64,000 bases of DNA from an uncultured Chloroflexia bacterium (GCA_963813335.1 CAWEYL010000001.1:544001-608000); one strand, 5' to 3'; shown: positions 11,669 through 63,397, counted from the stretch's first letter. Notes: generated by a model from the sequence alone, not told the origin. A program made the numbers and translations.

Positions 11669-11685
11669 CGAAACTCCCTGGCTCT

Positions 11686-11701: not shown

Positions 11702-11726
11702 GCTCAGTACGCACCATATCACCCCC

Positions 11727-24078: not shown

Positions 24079-25302
24079 ATGAGGCGAGCCATCGACAGGG
24101 GACCTTCGCTCCGGCAACGCCTCCAGATCGCCGTGACGCGGCTGATCTCGATCGCCGACCTGTCGACGGATGACGACGACGCTCGTCTCCGAAAGCGCGC
24201 CGGTGTGGTCGCCGGATACGCCACGATCGTCGCCCCGCTCGCCCTGCCGCTCGAAGGAGGGCTCGTCGGCATGGCGCTTGGCGTCGGGTTCTCGCTGTTC
24301 AGCGTCGGCAACCTGGTGGTCCTGGCCCGAACGAAGCGCTTCGATCGGTACGTCATCGCCTTCCTCGCACTCGGGCCGGCGTTCGTCCTGGCGGCGAACG
24401 TCCTCGCCGGCGGGGTCACGACGAACAGCGGCAGCCTCGTCTGGGCGTTCCTCGCGCCGGCCTACGCCCTGCTCGCACTCGGACCCCGACGCGCGAGGCC
24501 GTGGTTCGTCGTCTTCCTCGCAGCCCTGCTGGTCGCGGTCGTGACGGACCCGCTCGTCCGCGGTCTCTTCGCGCCACCGCCATACGTCATCCAGCTGATC
24601 TTCTACGCGCAGAACATCGGCGTCCCGCTGACGATCACCTTCCTCCTCCTGCTCTACACCGACCTGCGACGACGCGCGGCCGAGGCGCGCTCCGACGAGC
24701 TCCTGACGAACGCCATCCCGGCATCGATCGCGACCCGCCTCAAGCACGGCGAGGACAGCATCGCCGAGACCTACCCCGCGACGACCGTGGTCTTCACGGA
24801 TATCGTCGGCTTCACGCCATGGGCGCAGCGGACCGGCCCGGCGCGCATCGTGGCGCTCCTCGACGACCTCTTCAGCCGATTCGACACGGTCGCGGCCGAG
24901 CTCGGCATCGAGAAGATCAAGACCGTCGGCGACGCGTACATGGCCGCCGCCGGCGCCCCGCAGGCCCGCGCGGACCACGCACAGGCCGCGGTCGCCTTCG
25001 GGCGGGCGGTCCTCGCCGAGGTCGCCGCCTGGCGATCGGCCAATGACCTGGCGCTCGAGGTGCGGGTCGGCGTGGCCAGTGGCCCGGTCGTCGGCGGCGT
25101 CATCGGTCAGCGGCGGATCGTCTTCGACCTCTGGGGCGACACGGTGAACACGGCAGCGCGGATGGAGTCGTCGGGCGTCCCCGGGCGGATCCACCTCGCC
25201 GCCGCGACGCGGGATCTCCTGGGTGGCGACGGATTCGAAGCGCGACAGGTCGACGTCAAGGGCTTGGGGATGATGACGACCTACCTCGTGGCCGACGCGT
25301 AG
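24079..25302 (+). CDS. Membrane-bound class III adenylate cyclase (start uncertain)
   Basis: About six TM segments; FTDIVGFT, EKIKTVGDAYM, FDLWGDTVNTAARME; K and D residues consistent with ATP specificity. Confidence 0.9.
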   Translation: MRRAIDRGPSLRQRLQIAVTRLISIADLSTDDDDARLRKRAGVVAGYATIVAPLALPLEGGLVGMALGVGFSLFSVGNLVVLARTKRFDRYVIAFLALGPAFVLAANVLAGGVTTNSGSLVWAFLAPAYALLALGPRRARPWFVVFLAALLVAVVTDPLVRGLFAPPPYVIQLIFYAQNIGVPLTITFLLLLYTDLRRRAAEARSDELLTNAIPASIATRLKHGEDSIAETYPATTVVFTDIVGFTPWAQRTGPARIVALLDDLFSRFDTVAAELGIEKIKTVGDAYMAAAGAPQARADHAQAAVAFGRAVLAEVAAWRSANDLALEVRVGVASGPVVGGVIGQRRIVFDLWGDTVNTAARMESSGVPGRIHLAAATRDLLGGDGFEARQVDVKGLGMMTTYLVADA

Positions 25303-27664: not shown

Positions 27665-28210
27665 TCAGTCGTCGGCTGGCTGACTAATCCCTTTGGCCGC
27701 GTGGACCGGATGGCCGGCGAGCCGGGCGCGGTACCGGGCGTCGTCGGCGACGATGGCGGCATCCATCGGATCGCCCGACACAGCGACGACGCAGATGCCG
27801 ATGGTCGAATCCACGGCTGGGAGGCCGTCGTCAAGTTCCCAAACGACGGCATCCAAGAGGGTCCGCTGCGCCTCCTCCCGCCCGACGTGCCCGGGTATCT
27901 CGATCGCGAACTCGTCGCCGCCGAACCGAAATACACGCCAGGGCGAGAGGACCTTGATGAGATGAGCGGCGCAGGCTCGGAGTACTTGATCGCCGATGTC
28001 ATGCCCGTGCAGCTCGTTGACTGCCCGGAAGTCGTTGAGATCGACCACCGCCACCAAGGATCCGGACTGGATGTGGCGGATCGAGTCGTGACTGAACGCC
28101 CCGGTGAGCGGATCCTTCGCGAGAGGGTGGTCAACGTGCATGTCTGATCCTGACGGGCTTCCCGGTTCAGGCGCAAGGCGGATGACGTGCTCGTTCGGGT
28201 CCGTGCTCAT
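27665..28210 (-). CDS. Stand-alone GGDEF domain protein (putative diguanylate cyclase)
   Basis: DPLTG, DLNDFRAVNELHGHDIGD, FRFGGDEF. Confidence 0.8.
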   Translation of the reverse strand: MSTDPNEHVIRLAPEPGSPSGSDMHVDHPLAKDPLTGAFSHDSIRHIQSGSLVAVVDLNDFRAVNELHGHDIGDQVLRACAAHLIKVLSPWRVFRFGGDEFAIEIPGHVGREEAQRTLLDAVVWELDDGLPAVDSTIGICVVAVSGDPMDAAIVADDARYRARLAGHPVHAAKGISQPADD

Positions 28211-28668
28211 GGTGTCGGCAGTCCAAGCGAGGGACCGACCGGTGGTCGCGCCGGACGCACTGCTGGGAGCGCAGGACGCCTTGACCGTGGTTGATTTCCA
28301 CCGAATGGCCCTCACCAGACGCAGGCATCGAAGCCGACATGCGTCCCGAGGATCAGGTGCTCCGTCGGCGACCTCGGGCCACCCGTACGCGAAGAAGCCG
28401 TAGTCCCACGGGGCGCGGCGCAGATCCGCTGCTCCCGGCCGAAGACTCGACGACATCGCGGCCAGGGCCACCCGGCCGTGCTCGCACCCTCGAGGGAGGT
28501 ACCGGTACCGCGTTCACGGCGACGGGGTCGCCTCACATTTCGTGACGACCATCGCCCCGGACGACTTCACGCAGCGCGACCGTGATGGCCGGGCCGACCC
28601 TGAGCCGAGCGTAAGGCTGCGTCGACCTGACCAAGACGCTCGGCCGGGACCATCGTCGGATACACCGG

Positions 28669-34450: not shown

Positions 34451-34560
34451 GTGAGGAACGTATGCAGTCCACGCGCCCGGCGCCAGATGACAGACGTCCT
34501 CCTCGCGGGCAGGTGGCCATCGCGTCGCGGTGCCCATCCTCGGGCTACCATTGACCTCCC

Positions 34561-37500
34561 GTGACGACCCTCGCCCCGAACGACTTCACGCACCTCCACG
34601 TGCACTCCGAGTTCAGCCTGCTCGACGGGCTGGGGCGGATCACGGACCTGGTCGACGCGGCGGCCCACCAGGGCATGGATTCGATGGCGCTGACCGACCA
34701 CGGGGCGCTCTACGGCGCCGTCGCGTTCTACCAGGCGGCGAAGACCAAGGGCATCAAGCCGATCATCGGCATCGAGACCTACGTCGCCCGCCGCTCGATG
34801 ACCGACAAGGAGGGCAAGGCCGACAGCCAGCCCTTCCACCTGATCCTCCTCGCCCAGGACTGGCAGGGCTACCAGAACCTCTGCCGGCTCGCGACCGACG
34901 CCCACCTCGACGGCTACTACTACAAGCCGCGCATCGACCGCGACCATCTCGCCAAGCACAGCGCCGGACTGATCGGGCTGTCGGCCTGCCTGAGCGGCGA
35001 GGTCGCCAAGGCCCTCGAGGTCGATGACTGGGAGCTCGCCCGGACCGTCGCGGGCCAGTACGGCGACATCTTCGGCAAGGACCGCTTCTTCCTCGAGCTC
35101 CAGGACCACGGCCTGCCCGAGCAGCGGCGGCTCAACGAGCAGCTGCTCCGACTCGCCCCCGAGGCCGGGCTGCCGCTGGTCGTCACCAACGACCTCCACT
35201 ACGTCCGCCAGGACCAGTCCGAGGCGCACGACGTGCTGCTCTGCGTGGGCACCGGCAACAACCTCGACACGCCCAACCGCATGAAGTTCGACAGCGCCGA
35301 GTTCTACGTGAAGTCGGCGGCGCAGATGGCGGCGCTCTTCCCGGACCACCTCGACGCGATCCGCAACAGCCGGCGCATCGCCGAGATGACCGACCTCTCG
35401 CTGCCGCTCGGCCAGTTGCGCATCCCGCACTTCCCGGTGCCTGACGGGTTCACCACCGAGACCTGGCTTCGCGCCGAGTGCCAGCGCGGCCTCGAGCGCC
35501 GCTACGGGACGGTCACGCCGGCGCTCCAGGAGCGGCTCGACTACGAGCTGGGCGTGATCCTCTCGATGGGCTACGCCGGCTACTTCCTCATCGTGGCCGA
35601 CTTCATCGCGTTCGCCCGCGAGCAGGGGATCCAGACGACCTGCCGGGGCAGCGCGCCGGGCAGCATCGTGACCTACACGCTCGGCATCACGCCGGTGGAC
35701 CCGATCCTCTACCAGCTGCCGTTCGAGCGCTTCCTCAACCCGGACCGCGTGACGATGCCCGACATCGACGTGGACTTCGAGGACGGCCGCCGCGATGAGG
35801 TCATCGCCTACGTCGGGCGCAAGTACGGCCAGGACCACGTCGCCCAGATCATCACGTTCGGCACGATGCTGGCCCGGGCCGCCATCCGCGACGTCGGCCG
35901 CGTCCTCGGGCAACACCTACGGCGAGGTGGACCGGATCGCCAAGGCGATCCCGAACCAGCTCGGCATCCGGCTCGACGAGGCGCTCGCAGGTCGCGCCCG
36001 CGCTGCGCGAGCAGGTCGATGCCGACCCGGGGGTCAAGCGGATCATCGACTTCGCCCGCCAGCTCGAGGGCGTGGCGCGGAACGCCTCGACCCATGCCGC
36101 CGGCGTCGTCATCAGCCGCGAGCCGCTGACCGAGCTGATGCCGCTCCAGAAGGCGACCAACTCGGACGGGCTGATGACCCAGTACGAGATGCACGCGATC
36201 GAGGCGCTCGGGCTGCTCAAGTTCGACTTCCTCGGGCTCTCGAACCTGACGATCCTGCGCCAGGCGGTCGACATCGTCCGCGCCGAGCGCGGCACCGTCA
36301 TCGACCTCGACGAGATCCCGCTCGACGACGCGACGACCTTCGAGCTGCTCGCCTCCGGCGAGACGACCGGCATCTTCCAGCTGGAGTCGGCGGGGATGCG
36401 CCGCTACATCCGCGAGCTCCGGCCGACGTCGGTCTACGACCTGGCCGCCATGGTCGCGCTCTACCGGCCCGGCCCGATGGACAACATCCCCGCCTACATC
36501 CGGCGCAAGCACGGGCAGGAGCCGGTGACCTACCTCCACCCGCTCCTCGAGCCGTACCTGGAGAAGACCTACGGGATCTTCGTCTACCAGGAGGACATCA
36601 TGTCCGCGGCCATGGCCCTCGGCGGGTTCACCGGCCCGGAGGCGGACACGCTCGGCTACGCGATCCGCAAGAAGAAGTCCGCGGTGCTGCGCGCCCAGAA
36701 GGAGAAGTTCGTCACCCAGGCCGCCGAGCGGGGGGTCGCGCCGGCGGTGATCGACGCGGTCTTCACCGCCTTCGAGCCGTTCGAGCGCTACGGGTTCAAC
36801 AAGGCGCACGCCACCTGCTACGGCCTGATCGCCTACCAGACGGCGTACCTCAAGGCGAACTACACGGTCGAGTACATGACGGCGGTCCTCACCGCATTCC
36901 GCTCGAACGAGGAGAAGGTGGCCGCCGCGGTCGCCGAATGCCGGCGGATGGGCATCGAGGTCCTGCCGCCCGACGTCGTGACCAGCCATCTCGAGTTCAC
37001 GGTCGAGGGCGACGCGATCCGCTTCGGCCTGCTGGCGGTCAAGAACGTCGGCCAGGGCGCCATCGAATCGATCATCGCGGCGCGCGAGGAGGGCGGGCCG
37101 TTCCGCTCGCTGACCGACTTCTGCACCCGCATCGACCTGCGGCTGTGCAACCGCAAGGTGCTCGAGGCGCTGATCAAGGTCGGCGCGCTCGACTCGATGG
37201 GCCACGCGGCCCAGCTCCTGCTCGGGCTCGACGACGCGATCGGCGCGGCCCAGGCGACCCAGCGCGACCGGATCACCGGCCAGACGTCCCTCTTCGACAT
37301 GACGGTGGCCGACGCCGAGGTCTTCGAGCGGCCGCTGCCCGTCGCCACCGAGGTCCCGATGCGGGAGCGGCTGCGCTGGGAGAAGGAGCTCCTCGGGCTG
37401 TACCTCTCGGAGCACCCGATGGGCGAGGTCGCCGAGCAGGTCGGGCGGTACGTCAACGCCTACTCGGGCGACCTCAAGGACGAGTCGCTCGACGGCCAGC

Positions 37501-38419
37501 GGATCGTCGTCGGCGGGATCGTCACCGGCGTCCGGACGGTCGTCACCAAGCGCAACGACACGATGGCGATCGTGACCATCGAGGACCTCCAGGGGACGAT
37601 CGAGGTGGTCGTCTTCCCGCGCCTCTACGAGACCAGCCGCGCCGACCTGGCGCGACGGCGCGATCCTGCTCATCGCCGGCCGCGTCGACCATCGCGGCGA
37701 GGAGGCCTCGGTGCTCGCGGACCTCGTGCAGGACTGGGACGAGGCGGTCACGCTGGGTCCCGAGGCGTTCGCCCGGGACGTCGCCGCGGGCGACCGTGGC
37801 TCGCGTGGCCGGGCCGGCCAACGGCCGAAACGGGAACGGGAACGGCAACGGCGCGCCACGGCCCATGGTGGCCGTCGGCCCTGGCGCCGCGGCGGTGCCG
37901 GTCGTCGCCGGCGTCGGCGTGGAGCCGCCCGCCGTCGCGTTCGTCTCGCCGCTCCGGGTCGACATGGCGCCGCCGATGTCAGGGGCGTCCGGGATCTCCG
38001 CGCTGCCGCCGATCGCCCCGGCCGAACCGGTCTCCGCCTACGTCGAGGCCGACAGTGTCGCGGCGCTCGCCCCCGACCGCGACCAGGAGCCCGCGGTGCC
38101 CGACGAGGCCCGCGAGCGCATCGTGGCCGCCGCGACCGACGACGCGCCGCTCGACGCCGGTCCGGACTCGATCCTGCACGTGCGGTTCGCGGGGTCGGCC
38201 GGCTCGGAGCGCGTGGTCTCCGCGATGGAGCTGGTCAAGACGCTGTTGCGCGACCGACCCGGTGCCACGCGCGTGGTGATCCACGTTCCGGCGAGCGGGG
38301 CGGGGGAGGCCCTCCCCATGGAGCTGCGGCGGGGCGTCGCCTACGACGCCGAGCTGCTCGCGGAAGTGCACCGCCGCCTGGGCGACGGCCTGGTGGAGCT
38401 GCGCCTGGCCCAGGCCTGA
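34561..38419 (+). CDS. dnaE: DNA polymerase III alpha subunit (several frameshifts)
   Basis: PHP HLHVHSEFSLLDG, RGSAPGS, MPDIDVDF, HAAGVVI, LLKFDFLGL, YGFNKAH, OB fold. Confidence 0.96.
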
Positions 38420-40375: not shown

Positions 40376-41444
40376 CGGCCACGCGGGCCACGACCTCGAG
40401 CTCGTCGCCAGCCTGCTCGACGGCGACCTCCGCCCCGAGGACCGCGCCCGCGCCGCCCGCCAGGTCGCGAGCTGCGCCGACTGCGCGGCGATCCAGCGGG
40501 ACCTCCTGGCGCTGTCCGCGGCCACGCAGGCGCTGCCGGCACCGGCCCGGACCCGCGACTTCCGGCTCACCGCCGCCGATGCGGCCCGCCTCGCGGCGGC
40601 GCCGCCGGAACCGGCCCCGTCGTCCGCCCGTCCTGTCGGTGACATGACAACGACCGACCACGCCACCCACGACCTCGAGCGGCTCTCCGCCGCCGTCGAC
40701 GGCACCCTCCCGGCCGCCGACCTCCCTGCCATCGACGCCCAGCTCGCGTCGTGCGCCGAATGCGCCGACCTCCACGCCGACCTCCTCGCGATCGTCGCGG
40801 CGAACCGCGCGCTCGCGACGCCACCCCGGCCGCGCGACTACCGGCTGACCGACGCCGACGCGAAGCGCCTCCAGCCCGGCGGGCTGCGTGGCTGGCTCGC
40901 CCGGGTCGGATCGCCGAAGGACCGCGTTTCGCGCCCGCTGGCCATCGGCCTGACGACGCTCGGGCTGGTCGGGGTGCTGGTGGGGACGGCGCCATCGCTG
41001 CTGCTGTTCGGCAGTGCCTCGTCGTCCGGTGCGTCGGCGGGCGCACCCACCCGCGACAACGCCGCTCAGGCCGGTGGCGACGTGGCCAGTGCCGCGCCGA
41101 GCGCCGCCGCCAGTGCGGCCGCGGCGGCCCCGGTTCCCGAAGGCGCATCGGAGCCGCCGGCCGCCGCCGTGGCGTCGTCCGCGCCGGTCAAGGTCCAGGT
41201 CGACGGCGCGTCCCCGGGTCAGCGCGATCCGAACGCGAGCGTCGGCAGCGACGCCCAGGCCGGCGCCGGGCAGCCGGACCTCGCCGCCCCGCCGGCCGGC
41301 AGCCCCACGTTCGAGACCCTGACCGCCGATCGGGCCAGCGACACCGGCCCGTCACTCGTCCTCGTGGCGTCGCTCGCGGCGCTGCTCGCCGGGATCGCCC
41401 TCTTCGTCCTCCGGCTCGGGGCGCGACGCGGCCGCGGCGTCTGA
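40368..41444 (+). CDS. Anti-sigma factor with duplicated zf-HC2-like domain and two TM segments
   Basis: Overlaps the sigma gene; two HDLE..S...DG.L...CxxC...RDF/YRLT units. Confidence 0.8.
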   Translation: MVDGHAGHDLELVASLLDGDLRPEDRARAARQVASCADCAAIQRDLLALSAATQALPAPARTRDFRLTAADAARLAAAPPEPAPSSARPVGDMTTTDHATHDLERLSAAVDGTLPAADLPAIDAQLASCAECADLHADLLAIVAANRALATPPRPRDYRLTDADAKRLQPGGLRGWLARVGSPKDRVSRPLAIGLTTLGLVGVLVGTAPSLLLFGSASSSGASAGAPTRDNAAQAGGDVASAAPSAAASAAAAAPVPEGASEPPAAAVASSAPVKVQVDGASPGQRDPNASVGSDAQAGAGQPDLAAPPAGSPTFETLTADRASDTGPSLVLVASLAALLAGIALFVLRLGARRGRGV

Positions 41445-41538
41445 TCGCCGGGCGACCGGGACGTCGCCCCGCTCGCGGCCACGGGTACACTGGACTCCCA
41501 CACCCTCGTCCCGTTCGGACCGACCCCGAGGCCTGCCG

Positions 41539-44498
41539 ATGGACCGCCTGATGCTGCTCGACGGCAACGGGCTCATCTACCGCGGATATTTCGCGCTCCC
41601 GCCGCTGACGACGTCGAAGGGCGAGCTCGTGAACGCGGTCTTCGGGTTCTGCAGCATCGTCCTGCGCGGGATCCAGGACATCCGCCCGGACTACGTCGCG
41701 GTCGCCTTCGACCTGCCCGGCCCGACCTTCCGCCACGAGCAGTACGCCGAGTACAAGGCCACCCGCCAGCGCATGCCGGACGACCTGCGCGACCAGTTCC
41801 CCAAGGTCCGCGAGGTCGTCAAGGCCCTGCGCATCCCGGTCTACGAGCTGGCCGGCTACGAGGCCGATGACGTCATCGGGACGATCACCGTCGACGCGGA
41901 ACGGCGCGGCCTCGACACGACGATCGTGACCGGCGACCTCGACATGCTCCAGCTGGTCACGGACCACACGCGCCTGATGACGACCCGGTCCGGCGTCGAG
42001 AACACGATCCTCTACGACCCGGCGAAGATCTTCGACCGCTTCGAGCTGGTGCCCGGGCCAGATGATCGACTACAAGGCCCTCAAGGGCGACCCGACCGAC
42101 AACATCCCGGGCGTGCCCGGCGTCGGCGAGAAGACCGCGGCGAAGCTGATCCGCGAGTTCGGCACGCTCGACGCGCTGTACGAGCGGATCGACGAGGTCA
42201 AGCCCGACAAGCTGCGCGAGAAGCTCGTCGAGCACCGCGAGTCGGTGTTCATGGGCCGCGACCTCTCGACGATCGTCCGCGACCTGCCCGGTCGAGTTCG
42301 ACCTCGAGGCGGCCCGCCTCGGCGACTACGACCGCGAGACCGTCATCCGGCTCTTCCGCGAGTACGAGTTCCGCTCGCTGATCGAGCGCCTGCCGGCGAT
42401 GACCGGCGAGACGGCCGGCGACGCGGCCGAGGCGCTGCGCAGCGTGGCATCCGACGGCTCGGTCCCGGCGGCCCGGGTCGCCGGCGCGGCCCGTCCCGCC
42501 GGCTGGGGTTCGGCCCGCCCGGTCGCGCCGCCGTCGGAAGGCGGCGGACTCCAGCTCTCGCTCGATTTCGATGCCGTCGCGCGGCCCGCCGCGCCCGCGG
42601 CTCCCGCGGTCGATGCCGCGGCCGAGGTCGCCGCCCAGCCGGCCCGCCCCGCCGTCGAGGTCGACCCGGGCGACCTGCCCACCGCGCTGGCCGCGGCGAT
42701 CGCCGACCCGAGCCGGATCGAGGTCCACGCGGGGCGAGGGGATCGCCGCCCTGGAGCCGTGGCTGGCCGCCCAGCCGGCCGTCGGCGTCGGGCTGCTGCT
42801 CGACGACCCGCGACCGCGGCGCGGCGCGCCGGTCGCCCTCGCGCTCGCGGGCGCGGACGGCCGGACGATCGCGGTGGAAGGCCCGGCGGACGCCGCGGCG
42901 CTGCGGCTCGCTGCTCGAACGGCTGGCCATCCCCGTCGTCGCCCACGAGGTCAAGCCGCTGCTCGTGGCCCGGATCGGCGACGACCTCGACGCGCCCGCC
43001 GACCCCGGTCGCGTTCGACACCCAGATCGCGGCGTACATCCTCAATGCGTCGCTGCGGAGCCAGTCCATCTCGGACGTCGTCGCGGAGCAGCTCGACCTG
43101 ATCCTGCCGCCGGTCGCGGAGCTCGACAACCTGGCCCGGGCCGGTCTCGAGGCGCTCTCCGCGATCGCCGTCCGCGAGCCGCTGGAGCGGCGCCTCCGCG
43201 ACGAGGGCCTCGACCGCCTGTACGCGGAGATCGAGCTGCCGCTGATCGCCGTCCTCGCGCGGATGGAGGCGACCGGCGTCGCACTCGACCTCGACGCGCT
43301 CGCATTGCTCGCCACGGAGTTCGGTGCCGAGATCTCCCGACTCGAGGCCGAGATCTACGCGGACGTCGGCCACGAGTTCAACCTCGGCAGCCCCAAGCAG
43401 CTCGAGCAGATCCTCTTCTACGAGCTGAACCTGCCGAAGGGCAAGCGGACGAAGACCGGGTACTCGACGGACGCCTCGGTGCTCGAGGACCTGCGCCCCG
43501 CCCACCCGATGATCGACAAGCTGCTCGAGTGGCGGACCTACACGAAGCTGCGCTCGACCTACGTCGAGGCGCTGCCGTCGCTGCTCGCGTCGGACGGGCG
43601 GCTGCACACGACCTTCCACCAGGCCGTGGCCGCCACCGGGCGGCTGTCCTCGTCGGATCCGAACCTCCAGAACATCCCGATCCGGACGCCGCTCGGGCGG
43701 CGCATCCGCCGGGCGTTCGTGGCCGGCGCGCCGGACCTCACGCTCGTGGCCGCCGACTACAGCCAGATCGAGCTGCGGATCCTCGCCCACGTGTCGGGAG
43801 ACGAGCACCTGCGCGACGCGTTCGCGCGTGGCGCCGACATCCACCGCGAGACGGCGGCCCGCGTGCTCCACAAGGACCCTGCGGACGTGACGCTCGGCGA
43901 GCGCTCGATGGCCAAGATGGTCAACTTCGGCATCGCCTACGGGATGAGCGACTTCGGGCTGTCGAGCCGGGCCAACATCCCGCGCGCCGAGGCGCAGGAC
44001 TTCATCAACACCTATTTCGCGACCTATTCCGGGATCTCCTACTACATGCTCGCGATCAAGGAGCAGGCGCGGACCCAGGGCTACGTCACGACGCTGCTCG
44101 GACGCAAGCGCCACATCCCCGAGCTGGCGGCGCGCAACCCGACGCTGCGCGCGGCGGGGGAGCGGATGGCCATCAACATGCCGATCCAGGGGACCGCGGC
44201 CGACATCGTCAAGATCGCGATGATCCGCCTCGACGAGCGACTGCGCGACGGCGGGTTCCGGGCGCGGCCGCTGCTCCAGGTCCACGACGAGCTGCTGCTC
44301 GAGGTGCCACGGGCCGAGGTCGACCGGCTCGTGCCGGTCCTCCGCGAGACGATGGAGAGCGCCCTCCCGCTCGACGTCCCGCTGACCGTCGACGTGAAGG
44401 TCGGCGACGACTGGGATTCGATGACGCCGCTGACGCGTGCCGACGCGATCGCGGCCGAGGCGGCCGAGGCGCCCGACATCGCGCTCCCGATCGCCTGA
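41539..44498 (+). CDS. polA: DNA polymerase I (several frameshifts)
   Basis: 5'-3' exonuclease LLDGNGLIYR, YEADD, DNIPGVPGVGEKTA; TGRLSSSDPNLQNIP, DYSQIELR, AKMVNFGIAYG, LQVHDEL. Confidence 0.97.
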
Positions 44499-44516
44499 CG
44501 CCGCGGATCGTCAGGG

Positions 44517-45565
44517 ATGCCCGAACTCCCGGAGGTCGAGACCGTCGTCCGCGACCTGCGACCCCACCTGGTCGGCGCCACGATCACCGGTGCCCGCAGC
44601 TCCTGGGGGCGGACGCTCAAGACGCATGACGGCGACGCATTCGCCGCGGCGATCGACGGGACGGCGCGTCGAAGGCGGTCAGCCGGCGCGCGAAGCAGAT
44701 CGTCGTCGAGCTGTCGGGCGACGCCGCGATGACCATCCATCTCAAGATGACCGGCCAGCTGTTCGTGGTGCCGGCCGGCGCCGCGGAGGACCCGTACATC
44801 CGGCTGGTCCTGGAGCTGGCCGACGGGCGCGAGCTGCGGTTCCGCGACATCCGCAAGTTCGGGAAGATCGGGCTGTACGGGCGCGACCCCGTCACCGGCG
44901 AGCTGGTCACGGAGGTCGGCGGTGCCGCGCTGTTCGCGCAGATCGGCCCGGAGCCGCTGGACCCGGCGTTCACGCTGCGCGACTTCCGGCGGCGCATCCG
45001 ACGCCGCTCCGGGCGGCTCAAGCCACTCCTCCTCGACCAGTCGTTCATCGCGGGCGTCGGCAACATCTACGCCGACGAGGCGCTGTGGCAGGCGCGGCTC
45101 CATCCGCTCCGCACGGCCCCGACCCTCCGGCCAGCGGACGAGCGGCACCTGTTCGACGCCGTCCGCTCGATCCTGACCGAGGCGGTCGAGCGCCGCGGCT
45201 CCTCGATCGACGACTACACGGCGCCGGACGGCGACGGCTCGATGCAGGAGCACCTCAACGTCTACCAGCGGACCGGCGAGCCGTGCCCGCGCTGCGGCCG
45301 GCCGATCAAGCGCATCGTCATCGGGGCGCGGAGCACCCACTTCTGCTCGTGGTGCCAGCGGCTGCCGGCGAGCGATCGCGCCGGCGCCAGGGCGATCCTG
45401 CGCGGGATGACCGGCGGCGTGCGGCGGACCGGCCCGCGCTGGTCGGACCTGACGGATCGGACGAAGCAGGCCGCGGCCACGCGGCGAGCGGCGGCACGGC
45501 GAGCGGCCGGATCCGCGCCGGGACTCTGCGGTCCCGCCGGTGCCCGCGACGGCTGGAAACCGCTG

Positions 45566-45566
<1 letters not shown>
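44517..45566 (+). CDS. mutM: Formamidopyrimidine-DNA glycosylase (frameshifted)
   Basis: MPELPEVE, HLKMTG, GVGNIYADE, zinc finger CPRC...CSWCQ. Confidence 0.95.
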
Positions 45567-47612
<2,046 letters not shown>

Positions 47613-47705: not shown

Positions 47706-47768
47706 GTCGACCTGCCCGTGCGCGCTGATGCCGGGATCGGTCCGCTCGAATGGGGCGCTGGAAAGCCA

Positions 47769-50421
47769 CGTGCGTGCAGCTCGACTCGCCGCGATCGTCC
47801 GGCCCGTGAGATCGCGATCCCAGCAGTTCGTCGCCGGGACATCCGGCTCGACGAGGGTCTGGCTCTTCACGGCGTTCCTCGCTGCGATCGCGGCTGCGCT
47901 CGCGGTGCGGTTCGTCCCGTCCGAGCCTCCCCTCGACATTCCCATCGAGATCCCAGTGTGGCTGCTCGCCGGCGGGTTCTACCTGGCCGAGGCGAAGGTC
48001 ATCCACCTCCACATCGGGCGCAGCGCGCACTCGTTCTCGATGAGCGAGTTGCCGCTTGTCGCCGGACTCTTCCTCATCTCCCCACCGGCGTTCATCGTCG
48101 CGCGCGTCGTCGGTTCCGGCCTGGCACTCGCCTTCCACCGCCGCCAGCGCTCGGTCAAGCTCGCCTTCAACCTCGTCCAGTTCAGCCTGGCCTCGGTGGT
48201 CTCGGTCGCGATCATCCACCTCGCGATCGCACCGGACGCCGTGTTCGGGCCGGCGGTCTGGCTCGCCGTCCTGATGGTGGCGCTCGTCGAGAACGTCATC
48301 GGCGTCCTGGCGGTCAGCACCGCGATCTCCCTGGCCGAGGGAACGGCCCAGTACCGACGGATCCCCGAGATGCTCAAGATCGGGATCGTCGTCTCGCTGA
48401 CGAACGCGAGCATCGGCCTGATGGGCCTTACGGTGATCCTGTCGAACCCGGAGTCGGTCTGGCTCTTCGTCCTGCCGACGGTGACCGCGACCCTGGCGTA
48501 CCGCGCCTACATCTCCGAACGGCAACAGCACGAGAGCATCGAGCTGCTCTACGAGTCGACCCGCATCCTCCAGCGCAGCCCGCAGCTGGACACCGCCCTC
48601 GTCTCGCTGCTCGACCACGCCCGGAAGATGTTCCGGGCGGACGTCGCCGAGATCCGCCTCCTGCCGCGACACGAGGGCGACGACATCCTTCGGTGCCAGG
48701 TCGGACCGGGCGAAGCGGTGGAGGTGATGCAGCCGGTCAGGCCGGCGCTCGACGATGCCGTCCTCGAGCGCGCCGTCACCGAACGACATGGGCGCATCGT
48801 CGATCTGCCGGTCGACGCGGAGATCGACGGGGCAGGACGCCGGCGCGTCCGGAAGGCCCTCGTCGCCCCACTGCTGGGAGAGTCGACGCTCATCGGCACG
48901 CTACTGATCTCCGACCCCCTCAACGACATCAGCACGTTCGAGGCGGAGGATCTCAAGCTCTTCGAGACGCTGGCGAATCACACCGCGATCGCGCTCGAGA
49001 ACGGACAGCTGGAGCAGTCGCTCGAACAGCTCGGCCGGCTCAAGGAAGAGCTGCACCATCAGGCATCGCACGACCCGCTCACGGGGTTGGCGAACCGGTC
49101 GCTCTTCACCCAGGTCGTCGCCTCGCGCCTCGAGGCGCGGGACCCCGGCGGCACGGTGCCGATCGTCCTGTTCGTGGACCTCGACGACTTCAAGCTGGTC
49201 AACGACAGCCTCGGGCATGCCGCGGGCGACGCACTCCTGGTCGCGGTCGGCGACCGCCTTCACTCCGTGCTGCGCACCACCGACATGGCGGCCCGCCTCG
49301 GCGGTGACGAGTTCGCCGTGCTCCTGCGCGACACGCCGGACATGAAGGCGTCGATGCGCGTGGCGAACCGGCTGACGGCCGCCATGGGCCCACTCTTCGA
49401 GATCGAAGGTCGCGACGTCAACGTGCGGGCGAGCGTCGGCGTGGCGGCGGGCCGGCCGGGCGTCGAGACCGCGGGCGACCTGTTGCGCAACGCCGACGTC
49501 GCGATGTACTCGGCGAAGGCTCGCGGCAAGGGTCGCGTCGTCGTCTTCGAGCCGTCGATGCATGACGCGGTGATGGCGCGCGCCCAGCTGTCGGCAGACC
49601 TCGAACATGCGATCGCCGCCCGCGAGTTCGTGCTCCAATACCAACCCATCGTCGAGATCGCGACGGGTCGCATGGTCGGCGTCGAGGCGCTCGTGCGCTG
49701 GGAGCACCCGGAACGCGGCAGGATCGGCCCCGACGACTTCATCCGGGTGGCCGAGGAATCCGACTCGATCCTCGAGATCGGGCGCTGGGTGCTGAGCCAG
49801 GCGTGCCAGCAGCGGCATGCCTGGCAGCGAACCGTCGGTTCGGAGCCATTCACCGTGAGCGTGAACATCTCTGCCAGACAGCTGGTGCAGCCCGATTTCG
49901 TCGACGAGGTGCTGACGATCATCCGCGAGGCCGGCGTCGAACCGACGGACATCGTCCTGGAGATGACGGAGACGTCGATGCTCCAGGACAGCGCGGCGAC
50001 TCGCTCGAAGCTGCAGGACCTCCGCGATGTCGGGGTCGGTGTCTCGATCGACGACTTCGGCACCGGCTACTCGTCGCTGAGCTACCTCCAGCGATTCCCG
50101 GTGACGACGCTCAAGATCGCCCGGGACTTCGTCGACGTCGACGGCGTCGAGGCGGACGCCTGGGAGCTCGCCAATGCGATCGTGGCGCTGGGCCGCGCCC
50201 TCCGGCTGTCGGTCATCGCCGAGGGCGTGGAGCAGTGGTCGCAGCTCGGCCGGCTCCGGACGCTCGGCTGCGAGTTCGCCCAGGGCTTCTACTTCGCTCG
50301 ACCGCTCGACCCAGCCTCGATCGAATCGCTGCTCGTTCATGGCAGGGTCCTGAGCGGAGACCCGGACATCGACCCGGCGTTGCCCGTCCGGGCACCGGGT
50401 CGCGCCGTCGAGGCCGGCTGA
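47769..50421 (+). CDS. Multi-TM sensor-GAF-GGDEF-EAL bifunctional diguanylate cyclase/phosphodiesterase (start uncertain)
   Basis: About 7-8 TM segments, GAF-like segment, HDPLTGLANR, RTTD I-site, GGDEF, EAL, DDFGTGYSS, EGVE. Confidence 0.95.
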
Positions 50422-50682: not shown

Positions 50683-52276
50683 ATGATGCAGGTGGATCGT
50701 CCCGATGGGGGCAGCGCCTCCCCGACGCGCCCTCGCGCAGACCGCGGCTGGAGCCTCGATCTCACAGCGTCAGGTCGCCTCGCCGCGTCCCTCGCCGCTG
50801 TCCTCGTCGCCGCGGCCATCGCGCCCGTCGCCGCCCTCGCGTCCGGCTACGACCCGGCCGACGACGCGAACTCGATGTACAACACGACCGCGTACACCGG
50901 TGCCACGGCGTGGTGGAACGCCGGCTACACCGGCGCGGGCGTCGACGTCGCCCTCATCGACACCGGGGTCAGCCCGGTCCAGGGTCTCGCGACGCCGGGC
51001 AAGATCATCTACGGCCCGGACCTGTCACTCGAGTCCCAGTCGCCGGAGCTGAAGAACCTCGACACGAACGGCCACGGGACGTTCATGGCCGGGCTCATCG
51101 CCGGCAAGGACGGCGACCTCACGGAGCCGTATGCCGGACGCCCCGGCGTCGGCCTACCGGGGGATGGCTCCAGATGCCCGGATCGTGTCGGTCAAGGTCG
51201 GCGTCGCCGACGGTGGGACGGACGTCAGCCAGGTCATCGCCGCGATCGACTGGGTCGTCCAGCACAAGGACGACAACGGCCTGAACATCCGGGTCATCAA
51301 CCTGTCGTACGGGACGAACACGCACGCAGGCCTCCGCGGTCGACCCGCTCGCGTACGCCGCCGAGCAGGCCTGGAAGGCCGGCATCTTCGTCGTCGCCGC
51401 CGGCGGCAACAACGGCTACCAGAGCCGCAGGAGCCAGGCCCCGGCCCTGGCGAACCCGGCCATGGACCGCTACCTCATGGCGGTCGGCTCGTCGGACTCG
51501 ATGGGAACCACCACCGTGGAGGACGACCGGGTGCCGGCGTTCTCGCCCTGGCCGAGGCGCGGGACCGCGCGGAGCGTCGACCTCGTCGCCCCGGGGGTGC
51601 ACATCCAGGGGCTGCGCGTCCCGAACAGCTTCATCGACATGAACCACTCGGGGGGCCAGCTCGACGGACCGCTACTTCCGCGGCAGCGGGACGTCCGAGT
51701 CGGCGGCGATCGTCTCGGGTGCCGCGGCGTTGCTCCTCCAGAAGTACCCGACCGCCACACCCGACCGGATCAAGGCACTGCTCTCGCGCACCGCCTACGA
51801 CATCAACGGGCCGTCGCAGGCCATCGGCGGCGGCGAGCTGCAACTCGGGGAGGCCCTGACCACGGCCCTTCCGCACTCGACCCAGACCTGGCCCTCCTCG
51901 ACCGGCACGGGCTCGCTCGAAGCCGCCCGCGGCGATGATCACCTGACGCTCGACGGCGTCGTGCTGACCGGCGAGCAGGACATCTTCGGAGCGGCGTTCG
52001 ACTCGGAGGCGATGGCCCAGCTCGAGGCTGACGGCAGCAGCTGGTCCGGTGGGACGTGGAACGGCAACTCCTGGTCTGGCAGCAGCTGGTCGGGCAGCTC
52101 GTGGAGCGGCAGTTCCTGGTCTGGCAGCAGCTGGTCGGGCAGCTCGTGGTCCGGTTCGAGCTGGTCCGGCGAACTCCTGGTCCGGTTCGAGCTGGAGCGG
52201 CAGCTCCTGGTCGGGCAGCAGCTGGAGCGGAAGCTCCTGGTCGGGCGACAGCTGGTCCGGGGCGGACTGGGAGTAG
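50683..52276 (+). CDS. Secreted S8 subtilase with C-terminal GSSWS repeats (several frameshifts)
   Basis: Signal peptide; triad VALIDTG, NGHGTFMAG, GSGTSESAA; oxyanion AAGGN. Confidence 0.9.
52033..52273 (+). repeat. 16 x 15-bp coding repeat (G-x-x-W-x, mostly GSSWS)
   Basis: Counted directly; one extra base in unit 10; synonymous codons vary between units. Confidence 0.95.
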
Positions 52277-57733: not shown

Positions 57734-60022
57734 CTAGTGCTTGAACTTGACCTCGACGGTCATCCAGTTGCCCTGCTGGGCGAGGACCCGGATGGTCGTC
57801 CCGGTGTTCGGCACCGGCACGCTGGACCACCCGAAGTTGCCGATCGCGGCATTCGGGGCGACCCAGTAGCTCACGCTGTCGTCGAAGACGGGGTTGGCCG
57901 GGAGCCCCCCGTAGGTCTTGGCCACGCTGTTGAGGTGCAGCGTGATCTTGTCGGTCTTCTGCAGCCCGAACGTCGAGTCGTAGGACTGGATGCGCGGGCG
58001 CCAGACCTTGCCATCCGGGCGGATGAGCAGGTTCGGGTGGGCATCCACCGGCAGGAAGAACCCACCGCAGTTGCCCGCAAGGCAGTAGTCGCCGACGTTG
58101 TTGTCGGGATGCGAGTAGTCGAGGTACCAGACGAGGAGCCCGTTCTGGTAGGGGAAGTGCTCGACCCAGTTGCCCAGGGCGGGGTTGTCGAGGAAGCCGA
58201 AGTTGTACGGGCCGGTCTTCAGGGACTGGTCGTAGCCCCAGTAGACGCGGTTCTCCGCGATGTAGTAGTTCTCGTAGGCCTGGGTGATCGACTGGGTGAC
58301 ATTGGCGAACCCATCGAAGGTCCACGCCGGGGCGCCCGCTTCGGCGCCATCGGTGGGATTGCCGGTGATGGCGATGTCGTCGATCAGCGCGCCCTTGGGG
58401 GCGACGCCGCCGTCGGTGATGTACTCGAAGGCGAGACTGACCGTCTGGCCGGCGTAGGCGCTCAGGTCCGCGTGGAGCGGGACGTAGACGCCGCCGCTCG
58501 TGTCCGTGATCCCTTCATTGAAGCCGGGGTCGGACAGGTTGGTGTGGACCGGGGTGCCGTTGACGGTCAGGTACAGGTAGTCGTAGCCCGTCTCGATGTC
58601 GTAGTTGATGAACGCATCCAGGCTGACCGTGCCAGCGGGGAGCGTCACGGACCTCGTCATCGAGTTGTCGAGGTTGTTCCCCGACCCGGAGTAGTACTGG
58701 TGCGTGCCGCTATGCGGTGCGCCGATGTCGGTCGTCACCTCCTTCGGCGGAAGCGTGACCACCAGCTGCTGGGTCTTGGTGGTGTTGTACTCGGCCGGGC
58801 CCATGTGGACCCGGGTCTTCGGTGCGCCGTAGCCGACGATCTCGTAGTTCGACCAGCCGAGGAAGAGCTTTTCGTAGGCGCTCATGTGGACCGGCTCGGT
58901 GCCGATGCCGTCCTTGGGCTTGCCGCTCGAGCCGTACGAGCCGCTCGAGTACAGGGTCCAGAAGCCGGTCGAGTTCTCGGCACCACCGGTGTTGCCGCTG
59001 GTGTCGTAGAGGTCCGGCAGGCCGAGGTCGTGGCCGAACTCATGCGAGAAGACGCCGACGCCGCCGTCCTCGGGCTCGACGGTGTAGTCGCCGATCCATA
59101 CGTTCGAGTCGCCGATCTTGACGCCACCGAGCAGGTTGCCGGCCGGACCGGCGGACCCGATGAGGTTGTAGAAGGCGTACCAGCGGTGGCTCCAGATGGC
59201 GTCCTCGCCCTGGGCGCCGCCGCCGGTCTCCTCGCCGGAGCCGGCGTGGATGGCCTGGAAGTGGTCGATGTAGCCGTCAGGCTCGTTGAAGTTGCCGTCG
59301 CCGTCGTAGTCGTACCGATCCCACTTGTCGAACTGCGACAGGTAGGCGGCGATCTCGGCCGGCGTCTTGCCGGCGGCCACCTGGCCGGCGTACCAGGCGT
59401 TGACCTCGTCCTGGACGAAGCGCCAGACGGTGGAGCAGACGATGTCGCCGCACGCGTTGGTCCCGTAGCGGGCCTCGTTGTACGGGACGGTGACCCAGTC
59501 CTCTACGGTGCCGTTCACCGTGTAGCGGCCGGACGACTGCTCGAGGTAGAAGTCGCGCATCGAGACGGCGTTCTTCTTGTTGCTGAACAGCAGGCTCGTG
59601 TAGTAGGCCTGGTTGAAGTCGGACGCCCAGATGCTGGTGTTGTCGACCGAGCGGTCCGGGGCCGGGATCTGGTTGTGCACCGGGCCGGTCGTGCCGCCGT
59701 AGGACGGGTGGACCGTGTCGCCGAACTGGCCAAGGACCGTCCAGATCGTGTCTTCGCCCTGGCGATCGAGTTCCACGAACTTGCCGCGGCGGACCTGGAC
59801 GACTCCGTTGTGTCCGTGCTTGTCGAGGTGGCCGGACAGGTAGCCCTGCAGGCCCTGTGCGCGAAGCGCGGACTGCTCGGATCCGAGCGGATGGGGCATG
59901 TCGTCGACCGGCATCGAATCCGGCGTGGCCGGCGGAGCCTTGGGCTTGGCCGCGAAGGCGGTGCCAGCCGTGAGCGAGAGCAGCATGGTTAGGGTCGTCA
60001 CGACGACCAGGAGTTTCCTCAA
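57734..60022 (-). CDS. Secreted M6-family (immune inhibitor A-like) metalloprotease
   Basis: GAGGAGG RBS with TTG, signal peptide, DGYIDHF, IWSHRW, HEFGHDLGLPDLYD. Confidence 0.93.
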   Translation of the reverse strand: MRKLLVVVTTLTMLLSLTAGTAFAAKPKAPPATPDSMPVDDMPHPLGSEQSALRAQGLQGYLSGHLDKHGHNGVVQVRRGKFVELDRQGEDTIWTVLGQFGDTVHPSYGGTTGPVHNQIPAPDRSVDNTSIWASDFNQAYYTSLLFSNKKNAVSMRDFYLEQSSGRYTVNGTVEDWVTVPYNEARYGTNACGDIVCSTVWRFVQDEVNAWYAGQVAAGKTPAEIAAYLSQFDKWDRYDYDGDGNFNEPDGYIDHFQAIHAGSGEETGGGAQGEDAIWSHRWYAFYNLIGSAGPAGNLLGGVKIGDSNVWIGDYTVEPEDGGVGVFSHEFGHDLGLPDLYDTSGNTGGAENSTGFWTLYSSGSYGSSGKPKDGIGTEPVHMSAYEKLFLGWSNYEIVGYGAPKTRVHMGPAEYNTTKTQQLVVTLPPKEVTTDIGAPHSGTHQYYSGSGNNLDNSMTRSVTLPAGTVSLDAFINYDIETGYDYLYLTVNGTPVHTNLSDPGFNEGITDTSGGVYVPLHADLSAYAGQTVSLAFEYITDGGVAPKGALIDDIAITGNPTDGAEAGAPAWTFDGFANVTQSITQAYENYYIAENRVYWGYDQSLKTGPYNFGFLDNPALGNWVEHFPYQNGLLVWYLDYSHPDNNVGDYCLAGNCGGFFLPVDAHPNLLIRPDGKVWRPRIQSYDSTFGLQKTDKITLHLNSVAKTYGGLPANPVFDDSVSYWVAPNAAIGNFGWSSVPVPNTGTTIRVLAQQGNWMTVEVKFKH

Positions 60023-60283
60023 GACCGATCCCTCCTCAATGGGCATGTCGAGGCTGATGGGCGCGGGCGTGAGACAGCCAGAGACACCTCCTTCGGCGGC
60101 TGTCGGAGCCTGGGGCAAAGGGGTTGCGAGCACTCTCCCGTGTGCTGCGCGCTGGGCGCCAACCATAGCCCGGCCGCAGGCCGCCTCGCAACCCGGCGAC
60201 GGAGCGTCTGGCTTCGGAGCGTTGCCCGGACGCACCGGACTTCTGGCCCCGGGCCGCAGAACCCCACCGGTCGCCGCCGTCAA

Positions 60284-60295
60284 GAACACCTGTTC
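60284..60295. promoter_or_regulatory. LexA (SOS) box GAACACCTGTTC upstream of uvrA
   Basis: GAAC-N4-GTTC; TACACT -10 at 60314-60319. Confidence 0.85.
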
Positions 60296-60325
60296 CATAT
60301 GACGGCAGTCCGCTACACTGGGGCC

Positions 60326-63397
<3,072 letters not shown>

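What the first reader, a model, noticed from the sequence alone, without database searches (positions are those of the whole stretch)
52033..52276. (GSSWS)n tail conserved at the protein level: possible beta-solenoid, functional amyloid or peptide precursor
Seen: 16 pentapeptides (GSSWS, GGTWN, GNSWS, GSSWS x6, GNSWS, GSSWS x4, GDSWS, GADWE-stop) with Trp invariant at position 4. Ser codons switch among AGC, TCC, TCG, TCT and AGT, so this is not a recent slippage expansion. The last two units are acidic and cap-like. Inference: strict 5-residue periodicity suits a Trp-ladder beta-helix or cross-beta self-assembly, or it could yield identical peptides on autoproteolysis.
Basis: partly seen in the sequence, partly recalled or inferred. 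Interest (0 to 1): 0.75.

Follow-up and report, generated by a model that had tools for sequence, protein, structure and literature searches.

The report
Tryptophan-every-fifth tail on a secreted subtilase
The repeat is the real, widely conserved but undescribed C-terminal tail of a secreted soil-bacterial protease, and the protease gene almost always sits beside a membrane sensor gene, which hints at a protease-sensor signalling pair.

Summary
They form the C-terminal tail of a Peptidase_S8 gene (about 50683-52276, + strand). That gene is read in five frame pieces. Many other genes of the window, including dnaE, polA and uvrA, are also split across frames, so the breaks look like assembly errors.

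The tail is a conserved protein module. It is present in 78 of 79 related loci. In 187 of 197 homologues the protein ends exactly one residue after the last Trp, and the unit number peaks at 16. Pfam, NCBIfam, PDB and the literature searches describe nothing like it in bacteria. Two AlphaFold runs give it no confident fold.

New context: a 7-TM, weakly MASE9-like sensor lies next to the protease gene in 67 of 79 loci. It is fused to GAF-GGDEF-EAL, or in 10 loci to a PAS-histidine kinase.

Best reading (confidence 0.4): a multivalent Trp "sticker" tail that keeps the exported protease cell-associated near that sensor. The beta-solenoid reading is not supported. The peptide or tethered-ligand reading stays open.

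The parts
50683..52276 (+). Peptidase_S8 (subtilase) gene carrying the tail. It is read in five frame pieces: about 50683-51150 in frame 1, 51137-51322 in frame 2, 51312-51668 in frame 3, 51670-52170 in frame 1, and 52172-52273 in frame 2, followed by TAG.
   Evidence: Pfam PF00082 profile positions 1-68, 75-123, 133-212 and 231-288 fall on successive pieces. tblastn with intact homologues P0002, P0005 and P0008 shows four frame changes, all in the same direction. D, H, S and the oxyanion N are invariant in the family alignment.
50683..50841 (+). N-terminal export signal-like region: a charged stretch, then about 21 hydrophobic residues ending A-L-A before SGYDP.
   Evidence: Translation. The homologous region of P0002 is a helix at residues 32-52, followed at once by the confident catalytic domain. 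The assignment as a Sec signal or anchor is an inference; no signal-peptide predictor was available.
51880..52032 (+). Conserved post-catalytic linker domain of about 50 aa (T-G-T-G-S-L-E..R-G..D-G-V.L.G-E.D-I-F-G) that leads into the tail.
   Evidence: Translation; conservation. AlphaFold2 pLDDT is 74-93 for the homologous residues of P0002, including the first two tail units. No PDB chain covers it; matches stop near residue 389.
52033..52276 (+). The finding: 16 pentads G-x-S-W-S plus the stop codon. The protein ends one residue after the last Trp.
52168..52174 (+). Frame change inside unit 10 of the tail.
   Evidence: It is probably an assembly error, because Pfam domains of dnaE, polA, uvrA, GH1, GH94, a LacI regulator and an ABC-F gene are also split across frames in this window.
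47728..50421 (+). Upstream neighbour on the same strand: a membrane sensor protein of 897 aa. It has a domain of about 290 aa with about 7 TM helices and short loops (47728-48597), then GAF, GGDEF and EAL.
   Evidence: Pfam GAF, GGDEF and EAL. Hydropathy, with intact GGDEF (residue 525) and EAL (residue 653) motifs. The membrane domain lies next to the S8-tail gene in 67 of 79 related loci. MASE9 (PF20972) matches in relatives are weak: 24.1, 21.9 and 16.1 bits against a cut-off of 24.3. The window's own copy gives none.

Best explanation
The region encodes the C-terminal tail of an exported subtilase whose nearest curated family is mycosin. The tail is 16 pentads with one Trp each, in a polar Ser/Gly/Asn chain. 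It is a conserved, length-restricted module of this protease clade in uncultured soil Actinomycetota and Chloroflexota. The frame break inside it is most likely an assembly error. On its own the tail has no confidently predictable fold. I think it most likely works as a multivalent tryptophan 'sticker'. After Sec export it emerges last at the membrane surface. Its evenly spaced indoles partition into the membrane interface or envelope, or associate with one another as the every-fifth-Trp repeat of NANOG does. The active protease would then stay cell-associated, doing the job that a C-terminal transmembrane helix does in mycosins. That would place it beside the 7-TM sensor encoded next to it (GAF-GGDEF-EAL here, PAS-histidine kinase in other lineages), so protease and sensor would act as one module. 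Shown: the anatomy, the conservation, the register and length statistics, the specificity for S8 and the gene pairing. Inferred: export, the sticker mechanism, cell retention and any contact with the sensor.
For: Real and conserved: 2740 homologues at E<=1e-3 among 8000 scored, and all 120 listed carry PF00082 and W-pentads. Of 79 loci fetched with a tail-free query, 78 show the tail; L002 is cut by its contig end. Trp occupies position 4 in 99.3% of units, Gly position 1 in 87%, Ser or Thr position 3 in 85%. In 187 of 197 proteins the end is W-x-COOH, and the unit number peaks at 16 (89 of 197), then 17 (33), 14 (20) and 18 (20).
Specific to S8: every ORF with at least 4 Trp at spacing 5 in the 79 loci plus the window is an S8 gene or a frame piece of one. 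A tail-only search of 1.84 billion representatives gave 714 hits. Among 30 checked with Pfam, 17 were Peptidase_S8, with units as different as GISWD, GNSWT, GVRWT and GAAWN, so only G and W are constant.
No fold: tail pLDDT 26-40 and mean 46.
Sticker physics: on the Wimley-White interfacial scale (values recalled), tails sum to -19.1 +/- 5.1 kcal/mol (n=190). The 80-aa windows from the rest of the same proteins give +13.2 +/- 4.6, minimum -0.6 (n=1773).
[quoted passage not shown] It limits solubility and becomes beta-rich and ThT-positive (passages).
Pairing: the sensor's membrane domain is adjacent in 67 of 79 loci. In 48 it follows the S8 gene on the same strand, a median of 65 bp after the S8 stop; in 11 it precedes on the same strand, as here; in 8 it is divergent. 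Other neighbours differ between loci.
Nearest curated family: mycosin, 130 bits against a cut-off of 278.75.
Against: There is no direct evidence for membrane, wall or self binding. Low pLDDT is not proof of disorder. The sharp peak at 16 units, the fixed W-x end, the conserved first two units and the lineage-specific last two units would also fit a defined fold. Unit number does not compensate for unit polarity: Spearman -0.18 in one set and +0.35 (not significant) in the other. The interfacial scale was recalled and applies to unfolded peptides on POPC, not to a walled cell. In 11 of 79 loci the sensor domain was not found next to the gene; 3 of these show partial evidence at a contig end and several others are cut short. 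All loci examined carry the tail, so the pairing cannot be pinned on the tail rather than on the catalytic domain.
Confidence: 0.4

Rival explanations
1. The tail folds into a Trp-centred beta-solenoid related in geometry to pentapeptide-repeat (Rfr) proteins. There would be four pentads per coil, so 16 units make four coils. The linker domain would cap it at the N-terminal end and the acidic last units at the C-terminal end. It would act as a rigid stalk or binding surface.
For: The pattern (small or hydrophobic)-(polar)-W-(polar)-G resembles the recalled PRP consensus A(D/N)LXX. Genuine Pentapeptide-family proteins with AAFSG units mixed with AAWSG units turned up in the tail search (P0208, P0225). 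The unit number peaks at 16, the protein ends in register, and the first and last units are conserved. The first two units are modelled as strands packed on the linker domain, pLDDT 74-89. The best tail-only model has continuous strand-type DSSP at residues 84-116 with pLDDT 57-65.
Against: No Pentapeptide HMM hit at E<=10 on five full homologues or on the window piece. Two AlphaFold2 runs give no confident fold, although PRPs are usually modelled well (recalled). Foldseek finds nothing: best E 4.8, TM about 0.1. Position 2, the inward-facing i-2 site, is N in 28% and K in 6% of units. Common unit numbers such as 14, 17 and 18 are not multiples of four. Four Trp per coil may be too bulky for an Rfr core (inference).
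Confidence: 0.2
2. The tail is the ligand of the neighbouring 7-TM sensor. Either it is a tethered Trp-rich ligand at the membrane surface, or it is a polyprotein that the protease cuts into Trp pentapeptides which the sensor detects. The pair would then be a self-contained extracytoplasmic signalling module.
For: The same membrane domain is adjacent whether its output is GAF-GGDEF-EAL (61 of 79 loci have a tblastn match to that part; 15 confirmed by Pfam) or PAS-HisKA-HATPase (10 loci). This points to outside-in sensing by that domain. Its loops are short. The paper that defined MASE9 argues that ligand binding occurs within the membrane (passage). Subtilases prefer large hydrophobic P1 residues (recalled). 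Polytopic kinases that sense small, partly Trp-based peptides exist, such as AgrC and ComP (recalled).
Against: Nothing shows cleavage. Units within one tail are often heterogeneous at position 2. A conserved copy number of 16 is not expected of a peptide precursor. No response regulator was found among 38 neighbouring ORFs of 8 kinase-type loci. Gene pairing alone does not show contact.
Confidence: 0.15
3. The tail is a functional amyloid or gel-forming segment that builds or decorates an extracellular matrix, and the protease rides along with it.
For: The composition (Trp plus Ser, Asn and Gly) resembles the NANOG WR, which forms ThT-positive, fibril-like gels (passages). The neighbour is a c-di-GMP enzyme, a class that commonly governs matrix production (general knowledge).
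Against: No amyloid-system genes were seen among the neighbours scanned. An active protease fused to a matrix fibre has no precedent known to me. There is no experimental or predictive support here.
Confidence: 0.1
4. The tail is a passive low-complexity spacer or an evolutionary leftover with no function of its own. In this window it may simply be part of a dead gene.
For: Prediction confidence is low. The gene has four frame breaks.
Against: Trp is 99.3% invariant at position 4, the end is fixed in 187 of 197 proteins, the unit number is peaked, and the tail persists across phylum-level labels. Synonymous codon diversity points to selection on the protein. Frame breaks also hit dnaE and polA, so they are probably errors.
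Confidence: 0.05

Closest known systems
NANOG tryptophan repeat (WR) of vertebrates
   Same: Trp at every fifth residue in a polar spacer. Trp number sets the strength of self- and hetero-association. The domain is poorly soluble and turns beta-rich and ThT-positive (abstract; passages).
   Different: It belongs to a nuclear eukaryotic transcription factor. It has about 8-10 units and no Gly-x-Ser frame. No homology is implied, and the bacterial tail is extracytoplasmic and C-terminal on an enzyme.
Pentapeptide repeat proteins (Rfr fold; Pfam PF00805, PF13599, PF13576)
   Same: Strict 5-residue period with a polar residue and then Gly after the central residue. Some true members carry AAWSG units.
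   Different: The central residue is Trp rather than Leu or Phe. There is no HMM match, no predicted quadrilateral helix, and position i-2 is often Asn or Lys.
Mycosins (MycP, TIGR03921), the S8 proteases of type VII secretion
   Same: Best-scoring curated family for the catalytic domain. Exported S8 with an N-terminal signal and a C-terminal element that is not part of the catalytic fold.
   Different: The score of 130 bits is far below the cut-off of 278.75. The C-terminus is a Trp-pentad tail rather than a transmembrane helix. No ESX genes were found among the window ORFs scanned.
LapD-LapG (c-di-GMP receptor plus periplasmic protease) of Proteobacteria
   Same: A membrane GGDEF-EAL protein encoded with an extracytoplasmic protease (search listing and abstract starts: PMC3032545, PMC3032553, PMC4359373).
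   Different: LapG is not a subtilase, and LapD has a periplasmic domain and degenerate GGDEF and EAL domains (recalled). Here the motifs are intact and the loops short. In 10 loci the same sensor domain drives a histidine kinase, which argues for outside-in rather than inside-out signalling.
MASE9 membrane sensor domain (for the neighbouring gene)
   Same: A polytopic membrane domain with short loops, fused to varied outputs including GGDEF-EAL (passage). Pfam matches are weak.
   Different: Scores are at or below the gathering cut-off: 24.1, 21.9 and 16.1 bits against 24.3. The window's own copy has no match. An association with a protease is not mentioned in the passages read.
Non-covalent surface-retention repeats of Gram-positive proteins (GW modules, choline-binding repeats); recalled, not tested
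   Same: C-terminal aromatic-rich repeats that hold secreted enzymes on the cell surface.
   Different: Those are folded repeats of 20-80 residues with known ligands. The 5-residue unit here is far shorter and has no known ligand.

Membership tests
Peptidase_S8 (subtilase, PF00082) | Profile match above the gathering score | tested here: met
   The window pieces cover profile positions 1-288 in order. Three of the four pieces are individually above 21.8 bits. Intact homologues score 115-138 bits.
Peptidase_S8 (subtilase, PF00082) | Catalytic Asp, His and Ser plus the oxyanion Asn | tested here: met
   D92, H130, S336 and N241 (P0002 numbering) are invariant in 70 sequences. The corresponding motifs are present in the window translations.
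Mycosin (TIGR03921) | Score at or above the curated cut-off of 278.75 bits | tested here: not met
   127-146 bits for five homologues.
Mycosin (TIGR03921) | C-terminal transmembrane anchor and an ESX/type VII locus | tested here: not met
   The C-terminus is the polar Trp-pentad tail. No type VII families were found among 59 window ORFs scanned.
Pentapeptide repeat proteins (PF00805, PF13599, PF13576) | HMM match to a Pentapeptide family | tested here: not met
   None at E<=10 for P0002, P0005, P0018, P0023, P0052 or the window piece.
Pentapeptide repeat proteins (PF00805, PF13599, PF13576) | Right-handed quadrilateral beta-helix | tested here: inconclusive
   AlphaFold2 gives tail pLDDT 26-40 and a mean of 46 with a weak strand-like stretch. 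Foldseek finds no match.
Pentapeptide repeat proteins (PF00805, PF13599, PF13576) | Central Leu or Phe, with a small or hydrophobic residue at i-2 (recalled consensus) | tested here: not met
   The centre is Trp in 99.3% of units. Position i-2 is S 32%, N 28%, G 10%, A 6%, K 6%, L 5%.
NANOG-type tryptophan repeat (analogy only) | Trp at every fifth residue in polar spacers | tested here: met
   Definition taken from the abstract read.
NANOG-type tryptophan repeat (analogy only) | Trp-dependent self-association | not testable with these tools
   Needs AUC, SEC-MALS or ThT on purified tail.
MASE9 (PF20972), for the neighbouring sensor | Score at or above the gathering cut-off of 24.3 bits | tested here: inconclusive
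   L004 24.1, L023 21.9 and L010 16.1 bits. The window copy has no MASE9 hit at E<=10.
LapD/LapG-type inside-out system | LapG-type protease, and a receptor with a periplasmic domain and degenerate GGDEF-EAL (recalled) | tested here: not met
   The protease is S8. The GGDEF and EAL motifs are intact and the loops short. Ten loci have histidine-kinase variants of the same sensor.

The most novel reading that the evidence does not exclude
The Trp-pentad tail is the cognate ligand of the adjacent 7-TM sensor. It could be tethered at the membrane interface, or released as Trp pentapeptides by the protease's own activity. Monoderm soil bacteria would then carry a widespread, undescribed protease-coupled signalling module that sets c-di-GMP levels or, in some lineages, a phosphorelay.
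Probability: 0.15. Interest if true: 0.8.

Novelty: new variant of a known kind. Interest (0 to 1): 0.55.

Why it matters
Subtilases are among the best-studied enzymes. Yet a large clade from uncultured soil Actinomycetota and Chloroflexota carries a strictly periodic Trp tail that no domain library or searchable paper describes. The same clade is linked to a polytopic membrane sensor that drives c-di-GMP turnover or a histidine kinase.

If the tail is a retention or ligand element, it would define a new way for monoderm bacteria to keep a secreted enzyme at the cell surface, or to couple extracellular proteolysis to second-messenger signalling. It would also give MASE-type sensors, whose ligands are almost all unknown, a testable candidate input. 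Finally, it offers a simple natural model for how evenly spaced Trp residues drive association, next to NANOG.

Tried and rejected
- Complex prediction of the sensor membrane domain (alignment A3) with linker plus tail (A4): no verdict. The score was 0.00 against a mark of 0.32 and the controls were not run. This is not evidence either way.
- ESM Atlas look-alikes for the tail, with S8 clusters skipped: feature scores up to 0.89 and TM up to 0.43, so nothing usable.
- Foldseek of the tail-only model against PDB: best E 4.8. The full model matches only subtilisins.
- PDB sequence search: matches end near residue 389, so no solved structure covers the linker or the tail.
- Lenient Pfam (E<=10) and NCBIfam: nothing on the tail.
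- Literature string searches for the repeat (GSSWS, GNSWS, SWSGS, WSGSSW and others): only unrelated hits. Searches on tryptophan-rich subtilases and on subtilisin with c-di-GMP enzymes found nothing relevant.
- Idea that unit number compensates for unit polarity, giving a constant total interfacial energy: not seen.
- Idea that the kinase-type partners come with a response regulator: none among 38 ORFs in 8 loci.
- Flat Trp-zipper beta-meander: rejected on geometry (my reasoning). Three-residue strands joined by two-residue turns cannot keep a consistent hydrogen-bond register.
- LapD-like inside-out model: disfavoured by the kinase variants.

Full report
**Observation.** Frame 1 gives nine pentads (GSSWS, GGTWN, GNSWS, then GSSWS six times) up to 52167. 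The frame changes between 52168 and 52174. Frame 2 then gives the rest of unit 10 and units 11-16, ending GDSWS-GADWE-TAG. Trp is at position 4 in 16 of 16 units. Ser is encoded by AGC 18, TCC 10, TCG 8, TCT 2 and AGT 1, and 15 of the 16 DNA units differ. Tandem Repeats Finder reports periods of 15, 30 and 45 nt, the 45-nt period at 88% matches over 52033-52149. The array therefore carries some higher-order duplication history, but it is not a fresh slippage product.

**The gene.** The tail belongs to a Peptidase_S8 gene at about 50683-52276 on the + strand.
- Pfam places profile positions 1-68, 75-123, 133-212 and 231-288 on four successive pieces in different frames.
- tblastn with intact homologues shows four frame changes, near 51137-51162, 51312-51322, 51665-51670 and 52168-52174. 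All four go in the same direction.
- This is not peculiar to this gene. Pfam domains of a GH1 gene (three pieces), GH94, a LacI regulator, dnaE, polA, an ABC-F gene and uvrA are also split across frames in the window.
- Because dnaE and polA are affected, I read the breaks as assembly indel errors rather than gene decay (confidence about 0.8). Reads were not available.
- Syntenic relatives (ABC-F, sensor, S8, uvrB in L003) carry intact S8 genes.
- The N-terminus has a charged stretch, about 21 hydrophobic residues and A-L-A before the mature domain. Export by Sec is inferred, not tested.

**Relatives.** A search with the last catalytic piece plus nine tail units found 2740 proteins at E<=1e-3 among 8000 scored. 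All 120 listed carry PF00082, and their C-termini show the same pentads. Some sources name them 'serine protease AprX'.

It returned 79 loci from soil MAGs labelled Chloroflexia, Thermomicrobiales, Limnocylindria, Actinomycetota, Acidimicrobiia, Gaiellaceae and others, at best 79% identity. Of these, 78 show the tail; L002 is cut by the contig end.

Statistics over 201 homologues, of which 197 had a tail scorable by my algorithm:

| Feature | Value |
|---|---|
| Position 1 | G 87% |
| Position 2 (variable) | S 32%, N 28%, G 10%, A 6%, K 6%, L 5% |
| Position 3 | S 70%, T 15% |
| Position 4 | W 99.3% |
| Position 5 | S 80% |
| End of protein | exactly one residue after the last Trp in 187 of 197 |
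| Unit number | 16 (89 of 197), 17 (33), 14 (20), 18 (20), 15 (13) |
| Net charge | centred on 0 |

The first two units (SWSGG-x-WNG) and the last two units are conserved within lineages.

**Specificity.**
- In about 0.9 Mb of fetched loci plus the window, every ORF with at least 4 Trp at spacing 5 is an S8 gene or a frame piece of one. Six loci have tandem S8-tail paralogues.
- A tail-only phmmer search of 1.84 billion representatives gave 714 hits at E<=1e-3.
- Of the best 150, 48 carry S8 motifs. Many more are short C-terminal fragments.
- Of 30 checked with Pfam, 17 are Peptidase_S8. Their units are as different as GISWD, GNSWT, GMSWD, GVRWT and GAAWN, and they usually end W-x. Only Gly and Trp at a 5-residue period are constant.
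- Non-S8 exceptions: true Pentapeptide-family proteins mixing AAFSG and AAWSG units; a small family without Pfam match that has N-terminal acidic W-pentads; one animal GPCR; and many hits that look like translated satellite DNA, which I set aside.

**Known families.**
- Pfam at E<=10 and NCBIfam find nothing on the tail.
- The best curated family for the catalytic domain is mycosin, at 127-146 bits against a cut-off of 278.75, so the protein is not a member.
- PDB sequence matches (best 9UES and 3AFG) stop near residue 389. Foldseek of the full model returns only subtilisins.
- Full-text searches for the repeat strings found nothing relevant.

**Structure.** Two AlphaFold2 runs were made.
- P0002 (82% identical to the window query; 76-92% across the window pieces) with 70 sequences. 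The catalytic domain and the roughly 50-residue linker domain are confident: pLDDT 74-99 up to about residue 460, including the first two units as short strands. Residues 463-528 have pLDDT 26-40.
- A tail-focused run on 23 tails of exactly 16 units. Mean pLDDT is 46 and pTM 0.30, with a weak strand-like stretch at pLDDT 57-65. Foldseek finds nothing: best E 4.8, TM about 0.1.

The beta-solenoid reading is therefore not supported, though low confidence does not prove disorder. The pattern does resemble the recalled pentapeptide-repeat consensus. The peak at 16 units and the fixed ends keep that reading alive at about 0.2.

**Context.** The upstream gene (47728-50421) encodes a membrane domain of about 7 TM helices with short loops, followed by GAF, GGDEF and EAL with intact motifs.
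- An iterated local profile of that membrane domain finds it in 68 of 79 loci, and in 67 over at least 150 profile positions.
- In 48 loci it follows the S8 gene on the same strand, a median of 65 bp after the S8 stop. In 11 it precedes on the same strand, as here. In 8 it is divergent.
- Three further loci have partial evidence at contig ends.
- The output is GAF-GGDEF-EAL in most: 61 loci by tblastn and 15 confirmed by Pfam.
- In 10 loci the same membrane domain is fused to PAS-HisKA-HATPase.
- All other neighbours differ between loci. No response regulator was seen among 38 ORFs near the kinase-type genes.
- The domain matches MASE9 only weakly (24.1, 21.9 and 16.1 bits against a cut-off of 24.3). 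The paper defining MASE9 argues for ligand binding within the membrane (passage).
- The pair, rather than the wider locus, is the conserved unit. Shared descent inflates the count, but the changing gene order and flanks argue for selection on the linkage.

[quoted passage not shown] Its Trp number sets the strength of homo- and heterodimerisation (abstract). It limits solubility and becomes beta-rich, ThT-positive and gel-forming (passages).

On the Wimley-White interfacial scale (values recalled), the tails sum to -19.1 +/- 5.1 kcal/mol (n=190). The 80-residue windows from the rest of the same proteins give +13.2 +/- 4.6.

I therefore commit, at 0.4, to a multivalent Trp sticker tail that keeps the exported protease cell-associated. 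It would do so by interfacial partitioning, by self-association, or by both, next to its partner sensor. This would be functionally like the transmembrane anchor of mycosins.

Because the same sensor domain drives either c-di-GMP enzymes or a kinase, signalling is more likely outside-in than LapD-like inside-out (LapD-LapG: listing and abstract starts). That leaves open, at about 0.15, that the tail itself is the sensor's input, whether tethered or cleaved. A complex prediction gave no verdict.

**Verdict.** The protease is ordinary, but its tail is a widespread and undescribed module, and the conserved protease-sensor pairing is the most interesting result. Interest 0.55.

Noticed in passing
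window 1810-4385(-), 4277-6608(-), 10618-11728(-), 34555-38416(+), 41323-44495(+), 44434-47442(+), 59993-62803(+): Pfam domains of GH1 (three pieces), GH94, a LacI regulator, dnaE, polA, an ABC-F gene and uvrA are split across reading frames. Frame breaks are pervasive in this window and hit essential genes, which is typical of an error-prone assembly.
   Followed up: partly
window 47728-50421(+) and loci L001-L079: A gene for a 7-TM sensor that matches MASE9 only weakly lies next to the S8-tail gene in 67 of 79 related loci. It is fused to GAF-GGDEF-EAL, or in 10 loci to PAS-histidine kinase. Gene order varies and the flanks are unrelated between loci.
   Followed up: yes
L013, L015, L030, L033, L051, L074: Two S8-tail genes lie in tandem beside one sensor gene.
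   Followed up: no
proteins P0131, P0160, P0186, P0245, P0267; also P0247: A separate set of proteins of 415-510 aa with no Pfam match has acidic W-pentads near the N-terminus. In one S8 protein (P0247) the pentads lie N-terminal to the catalytic domain.
   Followed up: partly
window 52033-52170: A 45-nt (three-unit) DNA super-period at 81-88% matches overlies the 15-nt period, which hints at duplication in blocks of three units.
   Followed up: no
window 57737-60466(-): An intact 910-aa M6 'immune inhibitor A'-type metallopeptidase with MAM-like and VEG domains is a second large secreted protease near the S8 gene.
   Followed up: no
window 23953-25299(+), 27668-28471(-): The window holds further nucleotide-signalling genes: an adenylate/guanylate cyclase domain protein and a second GGDEF protein.
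   Followed up: no
L003 7320-9693(+): In this syntenic relative the uvrB gene is also split into two frames, so related MAG assemblies carry frame breaks too.
   Followed up: no
one search hit list (for example units MEWNG, GVVWC, GLVWS): Many top hits of the tail-only search look like translations of simple pentanucleotide or 15-nt satellite DNA rather than real proteins. One hit (P0122) is an animal adhesion GPCR with 93 W-pentads. These were set aside.
   Followed up: no
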